Source of the DNA: Novakomyces olei
Taxonomy: Eukaryota
Direction: 5' to 3'
Assembly: GCA_016906335.1 (NCBI GenBank)
Contig: JADEYG010000001.1
Coordinates: 558,001-622,000, forward strand
Length of the DNA: 64,000 nt
Positions within the stretch are counted from its first letter, which is position 1; every line of letters starts with the position of its first letter. Below the pieces are notes generated by a model. It was not told where the DNA came from. It saw only the letters and a list, made by a program, of their open reading frames with translations, and made no database searches. A program made the position numbers and the translations under genes. Positions 4,499 through 62,169 of the stretch are shown here, in pieces.

Positions 4499-4624
<126 letters not shown>

Positions 4625-14595: not shown

Positions 14596-15718
14596 TCACT
14601 TCCACTGATGCTGATTCTCGTCCGGCCCCACGACCTTGAAGGGTATTACCCGGCCCATTATCCCACCTACCTGCTGCATTGCATTGTTGGGCCGAATTAA
14701 AGCTCCGGCAAGCATTTCTCGGATACGGAAAAAGCTGTGCTTCCGTCGGACAGGGACCATACTTCGCCGTTCTAACGGCCTTGCTGCTGTGCGTCCGACC
14801 GCATCCATAACAAGAGAGACTTCTTCGTCCGAGTCTACTGGCCCTGCTGCCATTGGTTCTTCCATCTCTGATAAGGCAACCGCCTTGAGCGCTTGTTCTG
14901 TGTACGTATAAGTAATGGGAATTGCCAGCATTTAATGCACGAAGGGCACGCTTACTCTGCAATCTTGCTTGATTTTTCCGTTGGTAAGACGCTAGCAAAA
15001 CGTCAAACGGTTGGCTCCGATTAGGCACTGCCCTTTTTGCACCCATTGCATGCGTCTTGCATGTAAGGCTGCGTGCACACTGTTGGCCATTCGGCAATTG
15101 CACTCCGCACTGTTTATCCAAATCAATGGGGCCTGCTCAGGTCAGATAAATGCGTAGAATAATCATCCCAAATTTACCCTTTGTCTTTACCGGAGGAGTG
15201 CGCTTTTTAGCGCTCGAAGGCGTATTACTGGGACCAGAAGTACTGGGACCAGAAGTATTGCTGAGACCACTGTTGCCCGAGACTGGAGTCGCGTGGTTTG
15301 CTGCTTTACGCGTCAGACTGTTCGACTCGGCTTTCCGCTTTCTCGGGTTCGGGCCCGGAGAAGAAGCTGCCGTAGTAGGCGCAATAGGAGTGGCAGCACG
15401 AGAAACTGTCTCCGAGTCGCTATTGACACTACTGCCCCGCACCTTTGTGCGCTTCCTTCGCGCTTTATCTTCAAGCTCACGCGCACAGACAGCCTCGTGA
15501 TCTGCCATAAACTGTTCCATTATAGGCCGCTCACAGTGTGAGCAATGGCTCACACTGTACACGGCGTCCAGGGGTCGTGACGTAAATAGCCTTCGCTCCG
15601 AGTCTGTATTTAACACTGTACCCTGCGCAGTCGGTTCATTTTCTACCGCTTTTGCTTCCGAATAAGACGGACTCGCCAGCTGAACCGGTTCGCTCTGCTC
15701 TCGAGACGAAAAGAGCAT
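14596..15718 (-). CDS. SGF73: SAGA deubiquitinase module subunit Sgf73 / ataxin-7
   Basis: N-terminal CxxC..HxxxC zinc finger and SCA7 domain ([33 protein letters not shown]). Introns about 15134-15178 and 14898-14955. Start codon uncertain. Confidence 0.9.
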
Positions 15719-16539: not shown

Positions 16540-17668
16540 CTAGATACCACTAGCGGCCCTCTTCAATGTATCGAGCACTGCTGCAGCCAAATTTCCAGCA
16601 AACTGTGTGACACGTACGCGCAGTCCATGCCTACGGCGTCGCACGTACGCTAAAAGCACAGCCGCCAGTACTGTCAAAAACTGAAGTAAACGCGATTTAA
16701 CCATTGAACCCGATCTCGAGCTTAAAACAGTCTTGATTGAAGACAGGGCATTTCGTGAGGGCGGCCCTTCTAATCGCTTTCCAGCCGGAATTTTGTCAAC
16801 ATTACGTTCTGCTGCTCTCGCAACTTCCTGGCCGGTAGGAGGCTTTTCATTCCGTTTCTCCTTTATTGATACCCGGGCCCTTTTCTGCTGTAACTGCTCC
16901 CTCTGCTCCCGCTCCTTTTTCTGCTTTTTCTGTTCCTGTAAGCGCAAAGCCAATGACGCCTTTTCTTCGTCGCTCAATAAAACAGAAAGCTCAATAAAAC
17001 TGTGAGCATCGTCCCATTTGTCTAGGCAGGGAAGGTAAGCAGTAAGGTACATTTCCAGCAAGCGCTTCTGTTGCACCAGGGTCGAGTGTGCCGGCGGCGT
17101 GACCAATCGTGTTTCTATTTCCTCACGAAGCGACTCGACTTGGGGCAGTCTTCGAATGTGCAAGAGCATTCTGCCCGGTTAGCATGCTTTCCAAAGCAAA
17201 GGCACTTACAGGGCGATAAACACGTCTGTATCCAAATCGCCAGCAAAAGCACGAGCAGCCTCTTGCCAGACACCCGTGGAAGAATTTCGAATAACTATAC
17301 GCGGCCGGCGTCCGTAGACTGATCCGTCGAAGCGGAAGATAGAGTCCCGAGCAGAGTCGATCGGCTCAGTGCCAAGCAAAGCGAAATCTAGTATCACGAT
17401 ATAGAGCACCCAGACTGCGGCCCGCCAGGATCGCGGTACAACTGCCTCGTCTTGGATATCTAAATAAGGTTCAATCAGGACCAGTGCTTCTTTGATCCGG
17501 CGATGGAGGAAAAGCCGCGTTGCTTCCTCATAGTCTGAAGCGATGTTGTGCTTTGGAGCTGGAAACCGTGCCACCCACGATAAATTGCTGTGGCCTGAAT
17601 ACTGGAGCGGACTGGCATTGCTGCGTGAAGAATCGCTCACCATTGCGGGCGGTGCTATAAACATATCA
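16540..17668 (-). CDS. Probable peroxin Pex26/Pex15-like tail-anchored protein
   Basis: YEEATRLFLHRRIKEAL..IEP and VWVLYIVIL resemble fungal Pex26. C-terminal transmembrane segment followed by a basic RRRRH run. 39-nt intron 17171-17209. Start codon uncertain. Confidence 0.6.
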
Positions 17669-30552: not shown

Positions 30553-31755
30553 ATGAAGGGGGCACAGACAAAAGCAGACACGAAGGTTACGAGCCATGGA
30601 ATGGCTACACACCTTATCGCCGGTGGCTCGGCCGGGCTCATGGAGGTATATTATTTTTAATATTTCAATTTTAATATTTCAGTTTTGATATTTTCAATTT
30701 TGATTTTTCAATTTTGTATCTCAATTTAATTCTATCCCCAATCTAAATAGTTTCCTAACGACAACAATCGAATTCCTATTGATCATCTTTGCGATTACGC
30801 TGGCTTCCATTAACACGCTCTGCTACTATGAATATTTTATGTTTTTCTCTGACTCTAGGCCCTCGTATGCCACCCCTTGGATACCATTAAAGTTCGAATG
30901 CAATTATCACGGCGAGCACGAATGCCCGGCGCCCCTCGGCGAGGCTTCCTTCGCACGGGGCGGGAAATAGTCGCCCGGGAATCACCGCTCGGCCTTTACA
31001 AAGGCCTCGGGGCCGTAGTCACCGGGATCGTACCCAAAATGGCTATCCGCTTCTCGTCGTTTGAAATGTACAAGACTCTGCTGGCCGATGCAGTGGGCAA
31101 TGTATCAACAAGGGCGACTTTTCTTGCCGGTCTTATGGCCGGAGTGACAGAGGCAGTCGCGGTAGTAACGCCAATGGAAGTAGTAAAGATCAGGTTACAA
31201 GCGCAGCACCATTCAATGTCAGACCCGCTTGATGTTCCGCGGTACCGTAATGCTGCTCACTGTGCCTACACTGTAGTCCGAGAAGAAGGCGTTGGTGCTT
31301 TATATAAGGGCGTCGCTCTCACGGCGATTAGACAGGCTACAAATCAAGCGGTAAACTTTACTGCCTATCAAGAGTTTAGGAAGCGGTTGCAGGATTTACA
31401 GCCTGACTTGCAGGGCCAATTGCCCAGCTGGCAATCGTTCCTGATTGGTGGAGTATCCGGGGCAATGGGCCCGCTTTCTAACGCGCCTATTGATACAATA
31501 AAGACGCGTATTCAACGTGGCGGCGATTCTATTCCACAGATGAGCAGTGCCCTTCAACGGTTCTCTTTTGTTTCGCGTGAGCTTATCAAGCAGGAGGGTG
31601 TTCGTGCCCTGTACAAGGGCATCGGGCCCAGAATTTTGCGAGTAGCACCCGGCCAAGCTGTGACTTTTGCCGTGTATGAAAAGGTAAAGTCCTGGATTGA
31701 TCGGTTCCAATCCTCTGCTTCACTCTCCAGCATTGCCCGGGGTGCAGATGATTGA
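30553..31755 (+). CDS. SFC1: Mitochondrial succinate-fumarate carrier
   Basis: HLIAGGSAGLME|ALVCHPLDTIKVRMQL, GIVPKMAIRFSSFE, IRLQAQHHSMSDPLDVPRYRNA and RVAPGQAVTF. Intron 30646-30858. Confidence 0.92.
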
Positions 31756-32345: not shown

Positions 32346-34667
32346 TTATTCACCATTTTTCTGTCCCATTTTACACGTCAAGGCAACCGTCTGCTTTACA
32401 GTCTGCTCAATAGCGCTTTGCAACTGGGCAACAGGCACCGCGTCCAGTTTTTCTAACCGTTCTGGCGAGCTGGCTCTTGCCAATGACGGATCGGCCCGAC
32501 CGTAAAACCGCCGGGAGACAGTTTTATTAATCTCTGTAAACTGCTCCTTTGTAATCTTGCCAGTTCGATAGAAAGGCTTCAGTGAAGCATTGACTGTCAT
32601 CTCCACCTCGGCTTTGATTCGCCGTGAGAGCATTAATGGCTGTTCTTTAAGACCTTTGTCTTGCACAGTATGGGAGGGTTTCACTTGGCTGGCCCCCACT
32701 TGTTCTCCCTGGCTGACCCCCACTTGTTCTCCCTGGCTGACCCCCACCTGCTCTCCCTGGCTGACCCCCACTTTCTGAATATAATTATCTCCCGATGACG
32801 GACTTGAAAAACAAGTAGGCGATAAATGGGAAAACGTCGGGGTCGAGCTGCAGCTGGCTGGCGATGACGCTCGGCTTTGCGAAAGCAAAGATGTAATGTT
32901 GGAAGGCTTAGAGGGCAAAGTAGAGCTTCCAGTTGCTGGAGAGCCACAAGCAGTAGCGTTAAGTGTCCTTCTCACGGGAGTAGCCAGTTCCGGCATCCCC
33001 GTCGCGCTCTGTGGCCTCTTCATTTCCTCTAATAAGTCGCCAAGTAAGCTCGGGCCGGCCGGCAATGGTGACTGGCTCTCACCGCTATTTGCCGGTGTGG
33101 CTGCCTCTCTCCGCCGAGGCCGTTTCAGCTTGCGCTCTTCTTCCACAGGTTTGTCTCCTGTGGAGGCTGAAGCAGTATTGCTAGCATTGCCATTGGCACT
33201 AGAGACACCACTGGCTTCCCCAGTACGCCGCCGTTTCCTGCCCCTGCTGGAACCCTCTGTCACCATATTCCGAGCATGATCAAATAGCCGCCAAGTACGT
33301 GCGTCGCCGGTGACCACACGTTTACCTGAAGGCAATTCTATCCGAATCCCAGAGTCGGCTGATAAAAGGTTTGCCGTTTCAGACTTGGCAAATCCGTTAT
33401 CGTAACCGTCGGTGGTGTTTTCAATATTATTATCAATATTATTGTCAATATTATTGTCAATATTATCATCAATATTATCGACAATATTATCAACATCAGT
33501 ATTATTTTCATTGTGGATGATTCGAGTCTGGATAGCGGCTCGACGCAAGGGCACACGGACCCGCTCTGCCCATAATTGCCGCTCTCTCCTTTCCCGCTGC
33601 CGTCTACGCTGAGCTTCAGCTGCACTCGTCTCATTCACACTGTCTTCCTGATCAAAGTGGCCAAAATCTCTATCAAGCGCCTCCCACGCCCTCTCACGTA
33701 ATCTATCCCAGGCTAAATCCCACTGAGATCTGAGGGCCGATGTTTCTGCGGGCCCGGTTCGACGGGTCAATCGGCCATGTAATCGTCCAGTAGCAGCAGC
33801 ATTTCTTGCTGCTGCTCTTGCAGCTGCTCTCCGTCGGCCAGCAGTTCTAGTAGAGCCCTGACGGCCAATCTGCCTCTCATAAACAAAGAGACAAGTCGGA
33901 CAGAAAAACGCTCCACTGCCACGTGGCAGCAAAGCACCAGAGCCTAGAGCCTGAGCCGGCAAGCAATGCAAATGGTAGACGTCATCGCACTGATCGCACA
34001 TGAGCATCGTAGCGCTATGGTTATTATCGCCGTCTTGGTTATCCGCAGTGTTTGGGCCGAGTCCGCAGACTGTACATCGCCTATTTGTTTCCAGCCAAAC
34101 ATCGTAGTCCCCGTCTTCCTCCGGGACAGCTTGTACCCGGTCAGGCACTTCGTATTCCCGGACAAGCGTTGCATCAGGCAACCGTACTTGAACTGCATTG
34201 AATTTGGCTCGGCAAGTCGGACAAGTATTGCTCACCTGGCACCAGACGAGTAAGCACGCGTCGTGGAACACGTGCCCGCAAGCGATATGAGCAATCTCCA
34301 CTTCAGCCTCAGCTTTGATCTTGTTATTGTCACTGCCGGAATTAGTGGTAGAGCTTGACTGAGAAAGTAAAGTGTCTCTGTACTCTGACTTGACTCGTGG
34401 CTCTTGCGACTCTTGTTTGATTGAAGGTTCGGATGATTCTGGTTTTACAAGTGTTCCAGTCGACGATTGAGGCTCTGGTTCAAGGTTCGCTTCACTGCCA
34501 GCAGCTTCTGTAGATCTTAAAGCAGAACTCTCAGTCAAAGCTGATAGGCAAATAATACACAGCTCAAGCTCCGAATCAGAATCATCTTCTGCCGCCAAAG
34601 AGTCCGCCTGATCAATACCTTCTTCCACGATACTGCTCAAGGCAGCTTCTGGCTCCTCTGTCTTCAT
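32346..34667 (-). CDS. RING + PHD finger protein with a C-terminal SRI-like domain (Asr1/PHRF1-like)
   Basis: Split RING (CIIC ... CGHVFHDACL..W..VSNTCPTCR), PHD (CTVC..CDQCDDVYHLHCL..FCPTC) and C-terminal LKPFYRTGKITKEQFTEINKTVSR. Confidence 0.8.
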   Translation of the reverse strand: MKTEEPEAALSSIVEEGIDQADSLAAEDDSDSELELCIICLSALTESSALRSTEAAGSEANLEPEPQSSTGTLVKPESSEPSIKQESQEPRVKSEYRDTLLSQSSSTTNSGSDNNKIKAEAEVEIAHIACGHVFHDACLLVWCQVSNTCPTCRAKFNAVQVRLPDATLVREYEVPDRVQAVPEEDGDYDVWLETNRRCTVCGLGPNTADNQDGDNNHSATMLMCDQCDDVYHLHCLPAQALGSGALLPRGSGAFFCPTCLFVYERQIGRQGSTRTAGRRRAAARAAARNAAATGRLHGRLTRRTGPAETSALRSQWDLAWDRLRERAWEALDRDFGHFDQEDSVNETSAAEAQRRRQRERRERQLWAERVRVPLRRAAIQTRIIHNENNTDVDNIVDNIDDNIDNNIDNNIDNNIENTTDGYDNGFAKSETANLLSADSGIRIELPSGKRVVTGDARTWRLFDHARNMVTEGSSRGRKRRRTGEASGVSSANGNASNTASASTGDKPVEEERKLKRPRRREAATPANSGESQSPLPAGPSLLGDLLEEMKRPQSATGMPELATPVRRTLNATACGSPATGSSTLPSKPSNITSLLSQSRASSPASCSSTPTFSHLSPTCFSSPSSGDNYIQKVGVSQGEQVGVSQGEQVGVSQGEQVGASQVKPSHTVQDKGLKEQPLMLSRRIKAEVEMTVNASLKPFYRTGKITKEQFTEINKTVSRRFYGRADPSLARASSPERLEKLDAVPVAQLQSAIEQTVKQTVALTCKMGQKNGE
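32686..32772. repeat. 24-nt coding minisatellite, about 3.5 units (VGVSQGEQ)
   Basis: TGTTCTCCCTGGCTGACCCCCACT units visible directly. Confidence 0.92.
33421..33495. repeat. 12-nt coding repeat (NNID)n
   Basis: TCAATATTATTG-like units, about six copies. Confidence 0.88.
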
Positions 34668-35502
34668 GCGCAGAAAAATCGAGAGCCAGCACAGTAATGA
34701 GCGGGCTAATGTAGATAAAGTATTCCCGCACAGTATCCTGATACTCAGTACCCCGGTACTCTTACAGTACCGCACAGACGCCGCGCCGGTAATCAAACGG
34801 CCCGAGATGTAAAAAACTGACGTCTAAACCTGACAGAGTCCGCCAACAGTCCGTTTCATGCGTTCGCTAACGGCGTCTTTAAGCAGCAAGAAATAAAAGG
34901 CTTTGCGATATTGCTTCCAATAATAATGCACCCCTTCCTACCACCAATATCTGCACCACACTATCCTCTATGAGCGTGCTGGCTTTACGTGACAACGGAC
35001 TTGCTCAAACTCCGACCGACACTGAATAAAAGCAGGACAGTTTCCAGTTCAAAGTGCAACGGACCAAACAGCTCTTTCGATAATCTGACACTCCAACAGA
35101 ACGGTAAAAGACCACAGTGGAAAAATGTCCAAAAGTCAAAGTCTAAAATGCCCAAAGGTCACAGTCTAAAGCTGGCGTGATTTGACAGTGTACTCTGCCC
35201 ACGAGGCGGTTCGCCTTGCGGCCGTTGTGCGCGTTACCAAAGATTGCAAGATTATCCACCGAGATATTTATTATGGGACGTAGTTATCGGTGAAGATTAC
35301 ATGGTTATTATCATGACTATTATCTTATTCACCAGAATTAATTAAATTAATAAATAAATAAATAAATTAATTAATTATTAGACAACTGGATCACAATACA
35401 TTTTGCTTTATTATAGAGTATAAATGTCGAGCCTCATGTAATATATAGAAATCGTAGCTCGTGTTACGTAGTGTCATGCATCGCTAGGCTCTACTACGCT
35501 CA

Positions 35503-38758: not shown

Positions 38759-39269
38759 ATGACGGATCAAAAATCGCTGCAAACGAGCAGCTCTGAAGAA
38801 GACATCGATATCGAAGCATTTGTGCGGAAACAAGAGGCCTTTGTCGCTCGTTTACGCCTCGACTATGACGCTTTATCTGTTGCCAAAGCACGACTGGAGC
38901 ACGATATTCAAGAATAGTAAATTAAATGTCTAGATTATGGGAAACTGACAAACCAGCTCAGAATTAAAAGACGCTAAAAAGCCTTCACAATATCCTCTCT
39001 TGGCAGAAAATTTATTGCTTCAAGCAGCACCATTACCTGCATGGCATACGGACGCAAATTTGACAGTGGTTGATACCAATGTGGCCGGCATACATTCGGC
39101 CTTGACCCCGTCTGAATTAGAAACATTTTTGCCCAAGCGAATAGAGCTCTGTCGACGCCGAATTGAAGGCGTTTTGGCTCAGCAGGAAGCTGTTGAGGCT
39201 CACATCGATGCGGCTAATGAGACTCTATCGCAGATTTTGGCGCTACATAATGGAGAAATGAATCGATAA
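38759..39269 (+). CDS. Small coiled-coil protein, prefoldin-alpha/UXT-like
   Basis: ATG 38759; 40-nt intron 38917-38956 joins the 39000 ORF in frame. Helix (LRLDYDAL..LEHDIQEYSEL), beta segment, then helix (FLPKRIE..IDA). Confidence 0.5.
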
Positions 39270-41140: not shown

Positions 41141-42200
41141 TTAAAACGAGTTTACGATCAAGTCATAATGCCCCGGCCGGTAAAGCAGTGCCACAGGCGG
41201 CAAAGGTACCGCAGACTGAACGTCTGAAACGATTTCGTGTTTGTTCAAAGGTCCCGGCCTTGAGTCAAGGTAGTATACTATGAGACGAGAATGCATTGCA
41301 GAGACACAGGCGTGGATAATAGGCTCATCTGCCTCACGGCCCATTGCCTCTACTTGTGAACGAACATAAGCATCTAAATCATCAGCACCGACATACGCGG
41401 CATAGAGCTCAGCGTTTGCTCTCATTTGGCAAGCCGTCACAAAGCGCAGATAAACCACAAACGAGTTTGATCCTTGGGGTTCTTGAAACCGAGAAAGAAT
41501 CTCGTCATGGGCACCGACCAGATCAGATTCTCCAGAAGCAGCCACCTCTAGAATACCTAAAGCAGCATCTAGAAAGTCTTCGTATGCTAGTTTTTCGTAG
41601 CCATTAGCTTCTAGTAAATTCTGTGTGCTGTTGAAGCCCTCGATTGCTTTTCGTCTATCTGCCGGTGGAATAAATAAAAGATTTAGTGTCCATCCACAAG
41701 CGAATGCTGCGTTTTGTCAGCAGGTCTCCCTGTAATCGAAAAGGTGTAAAATTTTATGAATTAAATAATCATTGAAAACGATTTGATGTTCAAAAGAGTG
41801 ATAGAATTGCAGTATAATTAGCGGCCGAAACAAAAAATACATTAAAAAGCATGATAAAAGATAATAAATGTATGGAGGCGTGAATAGTAAGAGATAACAA
41901 TTGAGCCAGGCTAGCAAAGTCAAAAGAAATGGCAATTTTACCTCTGAAAAAGCAGTTGCCGTCGCCGAGCGATCGATGTAACAATTTATCGCTCAAAGTC
42001 TGGGGTAAGTATTCGTGTAGAAGGAATATACGAAAGCGTACTTCTATTTTGGCTCTAACGACTGGTGAGCCATTGGCATATTCGTCACGCAGATCGCTTA
42101 TGGGCAAAGGTGCCGATACAAGCGGACGCTCGCCATACTCGTCCTGCTTGAGTTTTTCTGTCAGATCGAGGATCTGTTCATCACTCAGCTCGTCAGTCAT
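41141..42200 (-). CDS. Otubain-like deubiquitinase (peptidase C65)
   Basis: GDGNCFFR|AFA with the catalytic Cys and LLYRPGHYDL with the catalytic His. Two introns. Confidence 0.9.
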
Positions 42201-43759: not shown

Positions 43760-45534
43760 TCAACGCCCTAATCCAAACGAGTCACAAACGGAAAACACGT
43801 CGCCGGCTCTCTTTATGTCTCCCTGCACGACAACGGTAGGCCTTCCAGACCCTTTACCAGCGTTGCGAACTTGGCCCTTGAGGATCTTGTTGGCAACACG
43901 GTACAAATCGTCTACAGTTATGGCATCAATATGGTCACAGATCTCCTTGGCCGTAGTTCGCACACCACTTTGAACTTGCCGGGCTAAATCTTCCAGCATA
44001 ATTGATCGTGATTCCAAGTTATACATTAGCGAAGCCTTGAGCAAGTTTTTAGCTCTATTAGCCTCAGTCTGGCTGATGGGCGAACGAAACGCGGGGTCAA
44101 GTAGCCTTACAAATTCTTGGCAAATAACAAAGGCCAAATGCTCAGCCGAAGAGCTGTCGCAACTTGCAGATATACCAAAGATTCCACTATCGCTGTACGA
44201 ATTATTAAACGCAACGCAGCTTTCCATAAACCCGTACTGGTTTAGCACGTGAGTAAATAGTCGGGAGTACATGCCTTTCCCGGGTCCGCCAGCACTAAAA
44301 CTGCCTCCTCCGCCCAACAAAAATTGCAGTGTAGCCGCCGCATAAATATCTGGATCATTAATCGGCACAGTTTCAAAGGCTATTATCATATGCGTTAGAG
44401 GAACACTCGTTCCCGGGGCAATAGCCGCCTCACTCTCTGGTATTTCTACCAGTCCACCCGTGTACTTTGCCACCGGCTGAGCGGGAAAAGGCACACTCGC
44501 CGGAGGCATATCTCCATAATACTTTTCTGCTAATTGCAGGGCCTGCTGGGCTGAAATACCGGCAAAGGCTACAATCACCCGGTCCGGGCGGTAAAACATT
44601 TGTCTATACTGGAGCACAAGATCCCGATTGATAAAAGGCAATGCCTCTTCGGGGCAGATGAGAGGATTGCCCAGAGTATTATCTCGAAAGGCAGCATAGT
44701 GAGCCAGCTCAGGGAGCACTTGATCCGGTTTGTTCCATAGCTCTTGAATCTCGTAGGCAGCAGTAGCCTTGGCCATTTCCACTTCTTCGTCTTGCAGTAA
44801 TGGGAACCTTACAGTATCGGCAATTATACGTGTTATTTCCTCGACATCGCTGTTGAACACAGCTGCCTGGTACAGCATGGTCTCGCGCGAACTTGAACAT
44901 AAATAGTTGCCACCCATTTTTTCCAATGCAATAAGAATATCGTCAGAAGATCGGGTCCGTGTTGATTTGAAACCAAGGCGGTCCATTATATGAGAGACAC
45001 CTCGGAAATGGGCAGACTCGTACCGTGAGCCGGCATCAACGTACGTACCCGCTGCACAAAAATGGCCGGGTACGGGTTCCGTTACTACGCGAATCCCGTT
45101 CGGCAGAGTTGTGAGAACGTCTAATTTTCCAGCGTCCTGATGTTAGTGATATGGCTTTGTACGAGAGGGAGAGAATTGATACAGATGATGTATAAACGTA
45201 AAGATCCTATCAAAAATTGCAATGAAACTGATAGATTGTGAAATAGATCTGATAGAGGTTTGGTAAGTATCTAACAGAAATCTGACAGAAATCTGACTTG
45301 TATCTGACAGATTTCCGAAAGATACTTCATAGAAATCAAACGGACGCATGTGAAATGCAAGGCAGACGTAATATATCCAAAGGCAAACAGCAAGCAAAAA
45401 CAAAAATTTAATCCTTTGTCCTTACGTACCTTTGCGGGACGAATGTTCACGTTAGTTTGAAGTAACCGGCAGGCAGCCGGCAATTTGCGAGCACACGCGG
45501 CGAAATGCCGTCCGGGCGCACAGGCCCGGTTCAT
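43760..45534 (-). CDS. MAS2: Mitochondrial processing peptidase alpha subunit
   Basis: TLPNGIRVVT, degenerate SHIMDRLGF and the glycine loop LGGGGSFSAGGPGKGMYSRL. Intron 45137-45429. Confidence 0.95.
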
Positions 45535-45949
45535 TTTCGGCTAGACGAGACGAAGAATTGGTGCAGGAAACAGATGAAGATTTGGGATATACGTAATTCT
45601 TAAAGAAAAATAGAAGTATTGGCTAAATGGAAGTTAAAATATTTTAACAAATGCAGAAACAAAAAGGAAAAAAGCCAACGATAGGAAATTGTAAAGTCCG
45701 CGCACAATCTGCGATGTCGACAAACACTGCCGGTGCGAATGTTGCAGATTGTAATTTTAAGAAAAGATATTTGAATTTGATAAATTATTTTTAATGCGCT
45801 ACGTGCTACTGAGTGTATAGAATGTTTTATGTAATGCAGTTCTCTCGTATCTGTATAATAGTATATATATATATTTAAAAGGCCATTTTAATATATAAGC
45901 TGCCTCGGGCGATATACATTAATAAAATATATTATTATTTTTCTAATAA

Positions 45950-46036
45950 TATTTTTATTATAGTTATTTTTATTATAGTTATTTTTATTATAATTATTTT
46001 TATTATAATTATTTTTATTATAATTATTTTTATAAT
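45950..46036. repeat. About 15-nt AT-rich tandem repeat (TATTTTTATTATAAT/AGT)
   Basis: About five units visible in the MAS2/ORT1 divergent intergenic region. Confidence 0.8.
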
Positions 46037-46454
46037 GATATATGTAAATTATATAGTCATATCATACGCTCTCGGTTTATACTAATATGGCAATCAAACG
46101 TTGAACAATAAGTATGAGGATTTATCTTTCAATTGCATGATACTAATGAAATCTTCATAGGCCTGTTTATGTATATCATTCAGGACCAGAATAATGGTTG
46201 AATATCGCATTCATTTTCATGGTTTCATTAGTGGGCGCAGTCCTATGATTAATTTCCGTGCAAGTAAAATGACGTTATGTCGTTGTGTATATGGAACCAC
46301 ATTATCATTGCGCGGTCCGACTCATGTATATATAATTGAACGCGCATGATCTGATTAGATCTGATAAAATGGGTCAAAGGAAACCAGTAATACAGAGAGC
46401 CAACCAATATATAGGACACGAGATCAGATAAGATCTTTTAATGCTCTTATCATC

Positions 46455-47776
46455 ATGAACGATAGCATCAAGGACATTGCCGTCGGCAGCGTAAGACCAG
46501 CTCACCCTATTAATTCCCTTTGTATCATGCTTACAACAGACGGCTGGAGCACTCAGCAAGATCGTAGAGTAAGTGGGGGTTATCGGTATCTATATTAAGA
46601 CTAGATATCCGTTTGACACTGTCAAAGTCCGACTGCAAACACAGACTTTTGCACGCCCACAGTATGCAGGTCCAGTAGATTGTGCAAAGCAAATCGTCCA
46701 CAATGAAGGGACAGTCTCGTTATTCCGGGTATGATGCTGATTGCCGACCTTTTTATTTTTTTTAATTTTGTTTTAATTTTTTTTTATTTTTGGTAATTTG
46801 ATCTTTCCAACTTTACTTTTCGATCAAGGTCTAACAATACTCAAGGGCGTTTCTGCACCGCTGGCAGGCGCAATGGCGGAAAACGCTTCTTTGTTCTTTG
46901 CTTACGGAGAGATAAGTTGCCATTTTATGTATTCAATTATCTCTATTCGATTTTTCTTTCCTTAATGTACTTATCCTTGTTTAAGCCAAAAAATGGGCCA
47001 CGGCCACTTACGGTGCACCGTTAAGCTATACCTCGCTACTTTGCTGCGGAGCTTTTTCAGGGCTTTGTACCTCATTTGTACTTACGCCCTTTGAGTTGGT
47101 AAAATGCCAGGCACAAGTTCAGGCTCGGAAGCCGCTCGTAATACTGCGCGATACATTAGCCAGCAATGGGCTAGCCTCGCTTTGGCGAGGTCAAACGGGT
47201 ACAATGATACGGGAAGTTGGAGGCACAACATCTTGGTTTGGCGCTTATGAAGCGGTTTTGCATTTTTTATCAGCATCTACCCCGCCTCCTATTGACCCAG
47301 AGCTTGGAGCTGAACCGGAGGTAGAAACTTGGAAATTGGCAGTAGCAGGAAGTGCTGCAGGTGTTGCGTACCATATTATATTTTTCCCGGCCGACAGTGT
47401 AAAATCTAGAGTGCAGGCTCTTCATGGAGCTCTTGATTTTCGAGGAACAGCAAGTGAGATGCTTCAACATGGAGGGATAGCCAGCTTTTATCGTGGACTC
47501 GGCATTACATTAGCAAGGGTAGGTTCATGTGCACATATTCCTATTTGCATCTTTAGTTTTAGTTTATTTGACTTTGCTTTGTTTTGCTTCTTCTTCTCCT
47601 TTTTCTTTTTTTTTTTTTTTTTTTTTTTTTTTTGGGTGTGTGTGTATGTTTGTTTGTTTGTTAGAAGTATCTAAATAATTTCGGGGCTATTTGCTAAACA
47701 TTAGGCTGCACCGTCGAGCGCGGTTATTTTTATCGTGTACGAACGGCTCAGAAGATGGGTGGATGGTGTATTTTAG
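46455..47776 (+). CDS. Mitochondrial carrier, ornithine transporter Ort1-like
   Basis: MNDSIKDIAVGS|TAGALSKIVE|YPFDTVKVRLQTQ..|GVSAPLAGAMAENASLF..|..TPFELVKCQAQV..WRGQTGTMIREVGG..|AAPSSAVIF. Five introns; intron 4 is atypical. Confidence 0.8.
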
Positions 47777-48163
47777 ACAGACACGATATATATACAAGCA
47801 TCACGCGACATATTTTTTGATACTGCCAATGTGTTCAATCTGGCGATCTAAAATATGACTTAGAATTGAATTAGTTAGACATGAGAGAATAAAAAGCTTT
47901 GTTTTGAGACCAACGGAGATGAGAAAATAATGCTTGATCGATGTGCATCCAAGTAGCAAAAAGAAACATTAAATAAGGTGAAACTAGTTAGATTCCGTTG
48001 AGCATAAGCAAACTATAATGTTTACACTCATAAACATTTTACAAATTGAGAGCGCAAAAAGTCATCGAAAGACAAGACAATTAACACACGCCAAAGGCTA
48101 GAATACTTTTATTTCAAAAGGATATCAAAGACTGCATATCATCAATTAAATAGATACATCAAA

Positions 48164-48999
48164 CTAAGTCTGTTTTTTCTTCGGTTTATCCTCGGCTATC
48201 TCGACATTATCTAGACTGTTAGACACAAAACTGAAGAAGAAAAAACAAAATGTATAGCCTGAGCCACAAAGCTAATACGGCTGATTAAAGGCAATTAATT
48301 CATAAATAAAAACAAATACATGACGCAGTAAAAACGGCCAAATACATAGCGACAGCCATCTCAGAATAGCCAAACTTACCCTCAGGTATTTCCTTAAACT
48401 TTTCCACAATAAAGTCGTAAACGTCATCACTAACGTCGCCCTGAATTACAATTTCATCCTGGTTTGCTGCGTTTTTTGAAACACTTGCTCCAGTCGCAAA
48501 CTTTTGAGCCAACATTTTCGCAGCCTTTTTCAAATCCACATCAAAGGCTTCTAATCCAATGATCGCAGTAACATGTTTACGCTTTGTACGTTCAATGCGA
48601 CGAATAGTTACTTTACTAGCCAAACGCTTCTTACGCTCACGATCTGCCCGGGCCTCCTGCTTTGCTTGTCGCTTTTCCGCGTCCTTTTGAGCTTTTTCCT
48701 TTTCTTCAACGGATAGTTTTGCAGTTTTTTCCGTCAGTGCCGAAGTCGAGTATAGCTGTTCAAACAAATCTGCGTGTGTTGTACTCAACCATTCTTTGCA
48801 TCGGGTTATTGTACTCCCAAATTCACAATACTGTCACGGGTTAGACCTTTATAAAATCGCCAATCTAATAAGCATACCTCGGGCGGCAAAGAGCAGACTT
48901 CAGTATTAGTGTAAGGTTTAAAAAAGATCAAATACCTTCGCAATAAACGACTGTGCGTGGAAGCACAGCTGGAGAAGACTCCTCGCCTACTTCAGCCAT
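48164..48999 (-). CDS. TMA22: Translation machinery-associated protein 22 (DENR)
   Basis: VVYCE|VCSLPPE|YCEFG..CKEWL and SUI1 domain KFATGASVSK..EIVIQGDV. Three introns with a 20-nt exon. Confidence 0.94.
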
Positions 49000-49153
49000 T
49001 GCCTTCAATATTAATTTAATATTTTTAATATTATATGGCTATCAGCACAAATAAATAACTTCTACTTTATTTGAATTTTCAAGATTACAAAATATATTTG
49101 GTAAATATCAGGGTTACTTATGTCAGTTGTAGATATTTGTATATTATTCTTGT

Positions 49154-49304
<151 letters not shown>

Positions 49305-49496
49305 TTATATTTGCAGTTGATTTGTAACAATTCATTAAGCTAGATTGATTTGATCCAAAAGCTATGTACAATAAGATTTGCCTCCCAACGCCGATTCTCT
49401 TAACAAAAACAAAGATATTGAGACCTCTTTGAAAAATTATACAAGTAGCTGTCTGGCATGATTCTCGCACTGATACAAAGTGTTCCTTTTCACCGC

Positions 49497-51590: not shown

Positions 51591-52364
51591 ATGGCTTCAA
51601 CTGCAAATGGGAAAAGCGGCGGTGTCGGCGCAGCGTCGTTTAATGACAAAGAAAAGCCGCAAGAAGTTCGATTCAGTAATATTACGGCAGCCCGCAGGTA
51701 GATTGTTATTGGTTTAATATCCTTGTATCCTTTGCTAATGAGAAAGCGTGGCCGATGCTATTCGGACTTCTCTTGGGCCTAAGGGAATGGACAAGATGAT
51801 CCAGACTGGCAAGGGCGAAGTCATTCTCACAAATGACGGTGCCACTATTCTAAAGCATCTCTCAGTGATGCATCCTGCCGCAAAAATGGTGAGTTTCTGC
51901 TTTCAATAGAGCCGTATAACTATCCTCAGGTTCTATCCCTTCAGTTTTTATCCTTCAATTTTTATTTCTTCAATTCTTATCCCCAATTTTCGCCTATATC
52001 TAACTTTACAGCTGGTAGATTTGTCTGCGGCTCAGGATGTGGAGGCGGGAGACGGCACTACTTCGGTCGTAGTTCTGGCCGGAAGTTTGCTGGCTGCGTC
52101 TGAAAAGCTGCTGGAGATGGGTATTCATCCTACTGTGATTGCAGAGGCTTTCCAGCGTGCGGCCGACGTGGGAGTCAAGGCACTAAAGGCCAACGCGACT
52201 CCTGTTGAACTTACAGATCGCAAAGCATTACTCCGTGCAGCTAGCACTTCTCTTAGCTCAAAGGTGCGTTTCAAAATTATGTTTTAATATAGATGTTAAA
52301 AGCTTTATGTTTGCCATTTCTTGTCAAGAACTAACATTGTTTTCCTTTCTATTTGTTTGTTTTT

Positions 52365-60279: not shown

Positions 60280-60416
60280 CATTTATATTTATATTTATAT
60301 ATATATTTATATATATATTTATATCTATATTTATATTTATATCTATATTTATATCTATATTTATATCTATATTTTTATATTATATTTTTATATATATCTC
60401 TATATTATATTTATAT
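60280..60416. repeat. (TATATT/TATATC)n AT-rich repeat
   Basis: Occupies about half of the ESA1/AAH1 divergent intergenic region. Confidence 0.85.
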
Positions 60417-62116: not shown

Positions 62117-62130
62117 ATTATTATTATTAC

Positions 62131-62169
<39 letters not shown>
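62117..62169. repeat. (TTA)n microsatellite
   Basis: About 17 units with one interruption. Confidence 0.92.

What the first reader, a model, noticed from the sequence alone, without database searches (positions are those of the whole stretch)
46912..46985. ORT1-like intron 4 has no normal donor: candidate AT...AA intron with an ATAAGT 5' site
Seen: the exon reads TAC GGA GAG, followed by ATAAGT (GTAAGT with G1 changed to A). An in-frame TAA sits immediately before the next conserved exon (GCC AAA AAA TGG), so an intron must be removed here. ATAAGT..TTTAA|GCC (46912-46984, 73 nt) gives YGE-AKKW, the usual carrier helix spacing. The only nearby GT-AG solution is GTTGCC..AAG (46916-46985), giving YGEI-TKKW; no other intron I parsed here has such a weak donor. 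Known: AUAAGU 5' sites occur in Neurospora/Aspergillus telomerase RNA introns, where they allow the first splicing step and stall the second; altered terminal nucleotides can suppress G1A donors. Inference: a rare non-canonical U2 intron, possibly a regulatory bottleneck on this carrier. A TTTCCTTAAT resembling a U12 branch site is present, but the donor is not ATATCCTT.
Basis: partly seen in the sequence, partly recalled or inferred. Interest (0 to 1): 0.7.

Follow-up and report, generated by a model that had tools for sequence, protein, structure and literature searches.

The report
Carrier-gene intron lacking a normal donor
One short intron in a fungal mitochondrial carrier gene starts with A where every other intron starts with G and probably ends in AA rather than AG, which would make it a rare rule-breaking intron cut out by the ordinary splicing machinery, but no RNA data were available to prove it.

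Summary
Exon 4 of a six-exon mitochondrial carrier gene (46455-47776, +) ends ...TAC GGA GAG and is followed by ATAAGT. An in-frame TAA directly precedes exon 5. Only two excisions keep the protein whole: AT..AA (46912-46984, 73 nt) and GT..AG (46916-46985, 70 nt, donor GTTGCC).

Indirect evidence favours AT..AA:
- In 31 other introns of the window, base +3 is always A or G and +5 always G or A. GTTGCC scores below all 31 and below most random GTs.
- GAG|nnAAGTTG scores above all 31. Only 25 of 127,978 window positions score as high.
- A profile of 92 homologues prefers the AT..AA protein by 2.5 bits.
- The closest relative, a genomic ORF 61% identical, keeps Ala-Lys-Lys with a Tyr codon (TAY) before it. 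It therefore has no AG at the same boundary or one base later.

U12-type splicing is unlikely. The donor does not fit, the branch-like motif occurs at chance frequency, and the neighbouring gene's best matches are ascomycetes, a group reported to lack minor introns.

No RNA run, genome or orthologous DNA could be obtained, so usage is inferred:
- U2-type AT-AA intron: about 0.5
- shifted GT-AG: about 0.27
- defective allele or other: the remainder

The parts
46455..46490 (+). exon 1 (ATG at 46455)
   Evidence: contiguous profile alignment
46491..46539 (+). intron 1, 49 nt, GTAAGA..CAG
46540..46568 (+). exon 2
46569..46604 (+). intron 2, 36 nt, GTAAGT..TAG
46605..46728 (+). exon 3 (PF00153 match)
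46729..46845 (+). intron 3, 117 nt, GTATGA..CTAAC..AAG
46846..46911 (+). exon 4 (GVSAPLAGAMAENASLFFAYGE), ends at phase 0
46912..46984 (+). intron 4 in the favoured reading: 73 nt, AT..AA, phase 0
46912..46917 (+). ATAAGT: a consensus 5' splice site except for A at +1
   Evidence: flank score 7.83 bits, above all 31 census donors
46916..46985 (+). rival reading of intron 4: 70 nt, GT..AG, phase 1, donor GTTGCC
   Evidence: flank score -11.4 bits
46968..46974 (+). TACTTAT, candidate branch site 11-12 nt before the 3' end; ACTTATC (46969-46975) is complementary to GATAAGT (46911-46917)
   Evidence: CTTAC motifs at similar distance in two other introns
46957..46966 (+). TTTCCTTAAT, a U12-branch-like motif and alternative TTAAT branch 19-20 nt before the 3' end
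   Evidence: TCCTTRAY found 7 times against 8.8 expected
46982..46984 (+). in-frame TAA, the last three bases of the intron in the AT..AA reading
46985..47518 (+). exon 5 (178 aa, two PF00153 stretches)
47519..47704 (+). intron 5, 186 nt, GTAGGT..CTAAA..TAG; position shared with relative P0001
47705..47776 (+). exon 6 with TAG stop at 47774-47776

Best explanation
Intron 4 is a phase-0 intron of the major (U2-type) spliceosome. Its 5' splice site is GAG|AUAAGU, with A instead of G at +1. Its 3' end is UAA|, with A instead of G at -1. It would then belong to the rare U2-type 'AT-AC type II' class but end in AA. Inferred mechanism: U1 and U6 recognise the otherwise perfect AUAAGU, and branching occurs at UACUUAU or CUUAAU. 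In exon ligation the usual G(+1)-G(-1) non-Watson-Crick pair is replaced by A(+1)-A(-1). The product reads ..FAYGE|AKKW.. (286 aa). Shown here: the sequence, the open frames, the quality of the donor context, and the better fit of the protein. Inferred: that this junction is the one used, and the A-A pairing.
For: (1) Donor census. In 31 introns of the window, +3 is A in 28 and G in 3, and +5 is G in 26 and A in 5. Scored without +1 and +2, GAG|nnAAGTTG reaches 7.83 bits, above all 31 (range 0.79-7.13). Only 25 of 127,978 positions reach that score.
(2) The only GT..AG option uses GTTGCC. It scores -11.4 bits, below all 31 introns and in the lowest 10.5% of the 6,577 GT dinucleotides in the window.
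(3) Family fit. An HMM of 92 homologues scores the AT..AA protein 355.1 bits and the GT..AG protein 352.6 bits. The fourth residue after the conserved Tyr is Q or K in 71 of 92 homologues and T in 1. The seventh is never W. Of the 92, 90 have no indel from the EN motif to the eighth residue after the Tyr.
(4) Relative P0001, 61% identical, is an unspliced genomic ORF, because it reads R|V.. into intron 5 at the same position. Across the intron 4 acceptor it reads M-Y-A-K-K-I, so the codon before Ala is TAY. That leaves no AG at the phase-0 site or one base later. Met at the position it would occupy if exonic occurs in 0 of 92 homologues, which points to 'MY' being intron sequence.
(5) Literature. 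U2-type AT-AC introns have a strong /ATAAGT consensus (PMC5029451 passage). AU-AC termini are judged tolerable in the ligation site (bioRxiv 10.1101/212811 passage). AT-AA is the commonest non-canonical ending of minor introns (PMC10639083 passage).
Against: There is no transcript evidence of any kind. I found no documented natural U2-type AT-AA intron: the listing and the passages read describe AT-AA only among U12-type introns. A at +1 blocks the second step in yeast, human and Aspergillus telomerase RNA contexts unless the 3' end is AC. Rescue by A at -1 is not something I could document. A canonical GT..AG excision that keeps the frame does exist and needs no unusual chemistry. The census introns were chosen with a score that rewards consensus donors, so '31 of 31' is partly circular. 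The non-circular part is that a consensus donor was available in a compatible frame at each of the 31 junctions, and not at this one. Only the protein of P0001 was seen, never its DNA. Its first residue could come from an alternative start codon, its 'MY' could in principle be exonic, and its donor is unknown.
Confidence: 0.5

Rival explanations
1. Shifted canonical intron. The spliceosome cuts at GT 46916 and AG 46985, a 70-nt GT-AG intron in phase 1. The overlapping AUAAGU would serve only as a U1 landing pad. The protein gains one residue (..YGEI-TKKW.., 287 aa).
For: The frame is open with GT-AG termini. AAG acceptors are normal here, 8 of 31. This is the only model that needs no unusual chemistry. 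The extra residue costs only 2.5 bits in the family profile, and the loop after helix 2 varies in length.
Against: GTTGCC has T at +3 (0 of 31 census introns) and C at +5 (0 of 31). Its flank scores -11.4 bits, worse than about 90% of random GTs. It offers essentially no match to the donor consensus, while a near-perfect site overlaps it 4 nt upstream. The resulting protein has T where 71 of 92 homologues have Q or K, and W where none has it. The relative cannot use the equivalent acceptor.
Confidence: 0.27
2. Splicing-defective or down-tuned allele. A recent change at a terminal base, for example AC to AA at the 3' end of an older AT-AC intron, leaves an intron that mostly stalls after the first step or gives frame-shifted AT..AG product. 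The gene would be poorly expressed or on its way to becoming a pseudogene.
For: A at +1 blocks the second step in several systems. Joining 46911 to 46986 would shift the frame (sequence). Loss of the yeast ornithine carrier is, from my recollection, tolerated as arginine bradytrophy; this was not checked here.
Against: The rest of the gene is intact. All other splice sites are consensus and the full-length profile match is 355 bits with no other lesion. The relative also lacks AG at this boundary yet keeps a conserved ORF, which argues that non-AG splicing works in this lineage.
Confidence: 0.13
3. Base-call or assembly error at 46912 and/or 46984, so that the real intron is GT..AG.
For: None directly. 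Raw reads could not be examined.
Against: A single correction does not help. G at 46912 with the present 3' end has no in-frame AG, and G at 46984 alone leaves the AT donor (sequence logic). Two independent G-to-A errors exactly at the two intron ends are needed.
Confidence: 0.05
4. U12-type (minor spliceosome) AT-AA intron that uses TTTCCTTAAT as its branch site.
For: TCCTTAAT matches the pattern TCCTTRAY that I used for the U12 branch site (a consensus recalled, not taken from a call). It lies 19-20 nt from the 3' end. AT-AA is the commonest non-canonical minor ending.
Against: The donor ATAAGTTG does not match /RTATCCTT. TCCTTRAY occurs 7 times against 8.8 expected, and RTATCCTT 5 times against 4.3 expected. 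No snRNA or other Rfam family was found in the window. The MPP-alpha neighbour's named best hits are all genera I recognise as ascomycetes, and no convincing minor introns are reported in Ascomycota (PMC10639083 passage).
Confidence: 0.03

Closest known systems
U2-type AT-AC ('type II') introns, e.g. human SCN4A/SCN5A and TAF2, and hypothesised in filamentous-fungal xylanase genes (Sheth et al. 2006, PMC1557818; passages and section 20 read)
   Same: A at +1 with an otherwise consensus major-type donor /ATAAGT. No U12 donor. Short and in frame. Extremely rare: 24 of 608,562 U2-type introns in five species.
   Different: The 3' terminal base here is A, not C. The host is an ascomycete. No splicing evidence exists for this one.
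U12-type AT-AA introns of animals and plants (PMC1557818 Table 2; PMC10639083 passage)
   Same: The same terminal dinucleotides, and a TCCTTAAT motif near the 3' end.
   Different: The donor is not /ATATCCTT, the motif is at chance frequency, and the host group is reported to lack the minor spliceosome.
AUA(A/C)GU 5' site of Aspergillus telomerase RNA (Kannan et al. 2015, PMC4299874; passages read)
   Same: The identical AUAAGU 5' site in an ascomycete, recognised by the major spliceosome.
   Different: There the A at +1 is used to stop after step 1 and create an RNA 3' end. Here both steps are needed to make an mRNA for a conserved protein.
Yeast and human suppression of a G-to-A change at +1 by G-to-C at the last intron base (cited in PMC1557818 section 20; original papers not held)
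   Same: The first and last intron bases co-vary, and an A at +1 needs a non-G partner.
   Different: The documented partner is C. An A partner in a major-type intron is not something I could document.
AT-AC junctions in S. cerevisiae RPL30 and SUT635 (PMC5029451, PMC6726248; passages read)
   Same: AT-started introns spliced in a fungus without a minor spliceosome.
   Different: Those are minor, non-conserved isoforms with AC ends, and in RPL30 the donor is unlike /ATAAGT. This one would be the only productive route for a conserved gene.

Membership tests
U2-type AT-AC (type II) intron | AT at +1 and +2, with the rest of the 5' site matching the major-type consensus (/ATAAGT) | tested here: met
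   GAG|ATAAGTTG; flank score 7.83 bits, above all 31 census donors
U2-type AT-AC (type II) intron | AC at the 3' terminus | tested here: not met
   The in-frame 3' end is TAA| at 46982-46984. It is therefore a variant, not a strict member.
U2-type AT-AC (type II) intron | No U12-type 5' site | tested here: met
   No /RTATCCTT at 46912; that motif is at chance level in the window
U2-type AT-AC (type II) intron | Junction seen in transcripts; dependence on U1, U2 and U6 | not testable with these tools
   No RNA run was listed and no genome is held
U2-type AT-AC (type II) intron | Non-canonical borders kept in orthologues | tested here: inconclusive
   P0001 reads TAY before the Ala codon, so it has no AG. 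Its DNA and donor were not seen.
Canonical GT-AG U2 intron | GT..AG termini that keep the frame | tested here: met
   46916-46985 gives an open 864-nt CDS
Canonical GT-AG U2 intron | 5' site compatible with this genome's donor consensus GT[AG]N[GA] | tested here: not met
   GTTGCC has T at +3 (0 of 31) and C at +5 (0 of 31); -11.4 bits
U12-type intron | /RTATCCTT donor | tested here: not met
   The donor is ATAAGTTG
U12-type intron | TCCTTRAY branch site roughly 10-26 nt from the 3' end (range recalled, not from a call) | tested here: met
   TCCTTAAT at 46959-46966, but the motif occurs 7 times against 8.8 expected by chance
U12-type intron | Host has minor snRNAs | not testable with these tools
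   No genome is held and the window has no Rfam hit. Literature reports none in Ascomycota.
Mitochondrial carrier family (PF00153), ornithine-carrier-like | Mito_carr repeats across the protein | tested here: met
   PF00153 E 1.3e-28 for exon 5 and 1.3e-09 for exon 3; full-length profile match of 355 bits
Mitochondrial carrier family (PF00153), ornithine-carrier-like | Orthology to ORT1/ARG11 specifically | tested here: inconclusive
   Two of ten looked-up homologues (about 40% identical) are named ornithine carrier by JGI, and the rest carry generic names. No tree was built.

The most novel reading that the evidence does not exclude
A lineage of early-diverging ascomycetes, which lack a minor spliceosome, keeps a major-type intron that starts with A. 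Its last base is free to vary: A here, a pyrimidine in the 61%-identical relative. The major spliceosome would then accept an A-A as well as an A-C terminal pair in a constitutive intron of a conserved gene, as the minor spliceosome does.
Probability: 0.4. Interest if true: 0.7.

Novelty: new variant of a known kind. Interest (0 to 1): 0.5.

Why it matters
Natural major-type introns that break the G-G rule are very few, and those I could find described all end in AC. A constitutive AT-AA intron in an organism with only the major spliceosome would show that A-A is also accepted in vivo. It would also give a natural substrate for testing how the ligation site reads the 3' end. In practical terms, gene finders restricted to GT-AG will either break this gene or insert a wrong residue at the junction.

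Tried and rejected
- RNA evidence: no RNA holder was listed for 46400-47800, so read laying could not be used.
- Whole genome: none is held for this window.
- Orthologous DNA: the metagenome scan gave one locus at 24% identity, too distant to use. The prokaryote genome scan gave none.
- Reading the relative's donor through an exon-4 read-through ORF: no candidate was found (one search was the same query with an out-of-range E-value).
- Cluster look-ups gave no names or accessions for P0001 or P0003.
- Earlier findings of this scan: nothing was returned in three look-ups.
- Rfam: no family in the window.
- RNA folding of 46905-46992: z = -1.57, with 17 of 200 shuffles folding as well. I make no structural claim. 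The 7-bp (46911-17 with 46969-75) and 8-bp (46908-15 with 46937-44) complementarities are noted only.
- My first single-strand gene finder chained shadow ORFs and was not used for counts. Counts come from the junction-by-junction census. I corrected two of that finder's first-pass calls: 61477 GTTTGT became 61471 GTAAGT and 60106 GTGCAT became 60082 GTAAGA. I added six introns by hand: the four other introns of this gene, 41707-41941 and 30646-30858. Pairs with no plausible gene link, 11 rows scoring below 6, were left out.
- Two original papers on terminal-base suppression were not held.
- Supplementary files were not consulted.

Full report
**What is there**

The window holds a six-exon gene on the + strand. 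The ATG is at 46455 and the TAG stop at 47774-47776. Exons 3 and 5 match Pfam PF00153, Mito_carr, with E values of 1.3e-09 and 1.3e-28. Two of ten looked-up homologues, about 40% identical, are named ornithine carrier by their source. 'ORT1-like' is therefore plausible, but orthology was not proven.

Four introns are ordinary:
- 46491-46539: GTAAGA..CAG
- 46569-46604: GTAAGT..TAG, only 36 nt
- 46729-46845: GTATGA..CTAAC..AAG
- 47519-47704: GTAGGT..CTAAA..TAG

TAC GGA GAG is followed by ATAAGT at 46912. An in-frame TAA lies at 46982-46984, and GCC AAA AAA TGG starts at 46985.

**The two possible excisions**

Removing 46912-46984 (73 nt, AT..AA, phase 0) gives an open 861-nt CDS of 286 aa reading ..FAYGE-AKKW... 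Removing 46916-46985 (70 nt, GT..AG, phase 1) gives 864 nt and 287 aa reading ..FAYGEI-TKKW...

One search listed every frame-compatible GT/GC..AG pair at this junction and found five. The other four delete helix-2 residues or use a GC donor without consensus.

A single base error cannot explain the site. With G at 46912 there is still no in-frame AG. With G at 46984 the donor is still AT.

**How donors look in this genome**

I defined coding segments by codon log-odds. For each pair of neighbouring segments on one strand I listed the frame-compatible GT/GC..AG pairs. This gave 25 junctions with a clear solution. I added the four other introns of this gene, 41707-41941 (an OTU-like gene, read by eye) and 30646-30858, for 31 in all.

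- Base +3 is A in 28 and G in 3.
- Base +5 is G in 26 and A in 5.
- Base +6 is T in 24.
- Acceptors are CAG 12, TAG 10, AAG 8 and GAG 1.

The choice among candidates used a score that rewards consensus donors and a CTRAY-type branch, so these counts are partly circular. The non-circular statement is that a consensus donor was available in a compatible frame at all 31 junctions and at intron 4 none is.

I then scored sites with the census matrix, leaving out +1 and +2.
- GTTGCC at 46916 gets -11.4 bits. That is below all 31 introns (minimum 0.79) and in the lowest 10.5% of the window's 6,577 GT dinucleotides.
- GAG|nnAAGTTG at 46912 gets 7.83 bits, above all 31 (maximum 7.13).
- Over both strands, 25 of 127,978 positions reach 7.83 bits, and 4 of these have T at +2.

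The ATAAGT at the phase-0 boundary is therefore very unlikely to be a chance look-alike. It is, or very recently was, the 5' splice site. The bare hexamer is not enriched: 22 found against 38.9 expected.

**Fit of the two proteins to the family**

A full-library HMMER search with exon 5 gave 5,836 hits at E <= 0.001 and listed the best 150. I aligned the 92 that were 260-360 aa long.

An HMM built from them, without my models and without P0001, scores the AT..AA protein at 355.1 bits and the GT..AG protein at 352.6 bits. That is about a five-fold likelihood difference.

Positions counted from the conserved Tyr:

| Position after Tyr | 92 homologues | AT..AA protein | GT..AG protein |
|---|---|---|---|
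| 3rd | A in 26, I in 12 | A | I |
| 4th | Q or K in 71, T in 1 | K | T |
| 7th | L, I, V, M or F in 85; W in 0 | A | W |

Ninety of the 92 have no indel between the EN motif and the eighth residue after the Tyr. The loop that follows varies in length, so this evidence is modest.

**The closest relative**

P0001 is 192 aa, from a 1,109-nt Logan contig. It is 61% identical over exon 5 by the alignment and, and 55% by BLASTP.

Its C-terminus reads ..GLGITAAR-VMFWS. It therefore runs into a GTN codon exactly where intron 5 starts here. This means it is unspliced genomic sequence and the intron 5 position is shared.

Its N-terminus reads M-Y-A-K-K-I, against A-K-K-W here. The codon before Ala is Tyr, TAY. 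The relative therefore has AG neither at the phase-0 boundary nor one base later.

'MY' could be exonic only if the relative's intron has moved or been lost. Against that, Met at that position is seen in 0 of 92 homologues, although Tyr at the next position is seen in 10 of 92.

The simplest reading is that the relative's intron ends in TAC or TAT at the same boundary. This would make a non-AG ending older than the split of the two species. I saw only the protein. Its first residue may stem from an alternative start codon, and its donor is unknown.

**Not a minor-spliceosome intron**

- The donor does not match /RTATCCTT.
- TCCTTRAY occurs 7 times against 8.8 expected, and RTATCCTT 5 times against 4.3 expected.
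- Rfam finds nothing in the window.
- The neighbouring MPP-alpha gene (43763-45142, minus strand) has its 120 listed best hits at 48-58% identity, apart from one unnamed Logan hit at 73%. The named ones are all genera I recognise as ascomycetes: Pezizomycotina, Dipodascopsis and Saitoella.
- Larue et al. 2023 report no convincing minor introns in Ascomycota or Basidiomycota (PMC10639083, passage).

**What is known**

- Sheth et al. 2006 count 24 U2-type AT-AC introns among 608,562 U2-type introns in five species. They mention hypothesised cases in filamentous-fungal xylanase genes. They list AT-AA only among U12-type introns (PMC1557818, section 20 and tables).
- Gould et al. 2016 describe the /ATAAGT consensus of this class and an AT-AC junction in yeast RPL30 (PMC5029451, passages).
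- Talkish et al. 2019 report one AT-AC junction in SUT635 (PMC6726248, passages).
- Kannan et al. 2015 show that AUAAGU in the Aspergillus niger telomerase RNA intron lets step 1 proceed and blocks step 2 (PMC4299874, passages).
- The P-complex structure paper states that AU with AC could be tolerated in the ligation site (bioRxiv 10.1101/212811, passage).
- In the searches I found no description of a natural major-type AT-AA intron. That is a statement about those searches only.

**Verdict**

The 5' site is almost certainly AUAAGU. What remains open is how the second step is completed.

- Ligation at UAA| gives an AT-AA intron and a protein that matches the family: about 0.5.
- Use of the very poor GUUGCC with AAG| is about 0.27.
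- A splicing-impaired allele is about 0.13.
- Base-call error is about 0.05.
- U12-type splicing is about 0.03.

All of this is inference from DNA. One RT-PCR would settle it.

Noticed in passing
window 46569-46604, 17171-17209 (-), 38917-38956, 15136-15177 (-): Very short spliceosomal introns of 36, 39, 40 and 42 nt. The branch motif CTRAY usually lies only 7-11 nt before the 3' AG.
   Followed up: partly
window 51717-51732 (+) and 46971-46978 (+): The U12-donor-like word [AG]TATCCTT occurs twice in tandem inside the 49-nt first intron of the CCT-like gene (51698-51746). TTATCCTT sits near the 3' end of intron 4. Window-wide the word is at chance level, 5 found against 4.3 expected.
   Followed up: partly
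window 46911-46917 with 46969-46975; 46908-46915 with 46937-46944: The 5' splice site GATAAGT is complementary to ACTTATC at the candidate branch site (7 bp). AGAGATAA is complementary to TTATCTCT (8 bp). The fold of the whole intron is not significant, z = -1.57. Two other introns with GTAAG donors carry CTTAC near their 3' ends.
   Followed up: partly
window 48379 (-): AGG|GTAAGTTT is the only GT site in the window whose flank scores above the intron 4 AT site (9.19 bits). It lies inside the 177-aa ORF 48300-48833 (-), near its 3' end. It is probably an intron that I did not model.
   Followed up: no
window 4500-4624, 49153-49305, 60281-60416, 45930-46033, 62117-62169: Long perfect or near-perfect AT-rich microsatellites: (ATT)x42, (TATT)x38, (ATTTAT)x22, a 15-mer x7 just upstream of the carrier gene, and (ATT)x18. 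There is also a T run of about 35 inside intron 5 near 47600.
   Followed up: no
window 30553-31755 (+): A second mitochondrial carrier gene with one modelled intron, 30646-30858 (GTATAT..CTGAC..TAG). A 14-nt tandem repeat lies inside that intron.
   Followed up: no
window 32686-32773 (-): A 24-nt tandem repeat, 3.7 copies at 93% match, lies inside the 825-aa ORF 32349-34823 and is in frame as 8-residue units.
   Followed up: no
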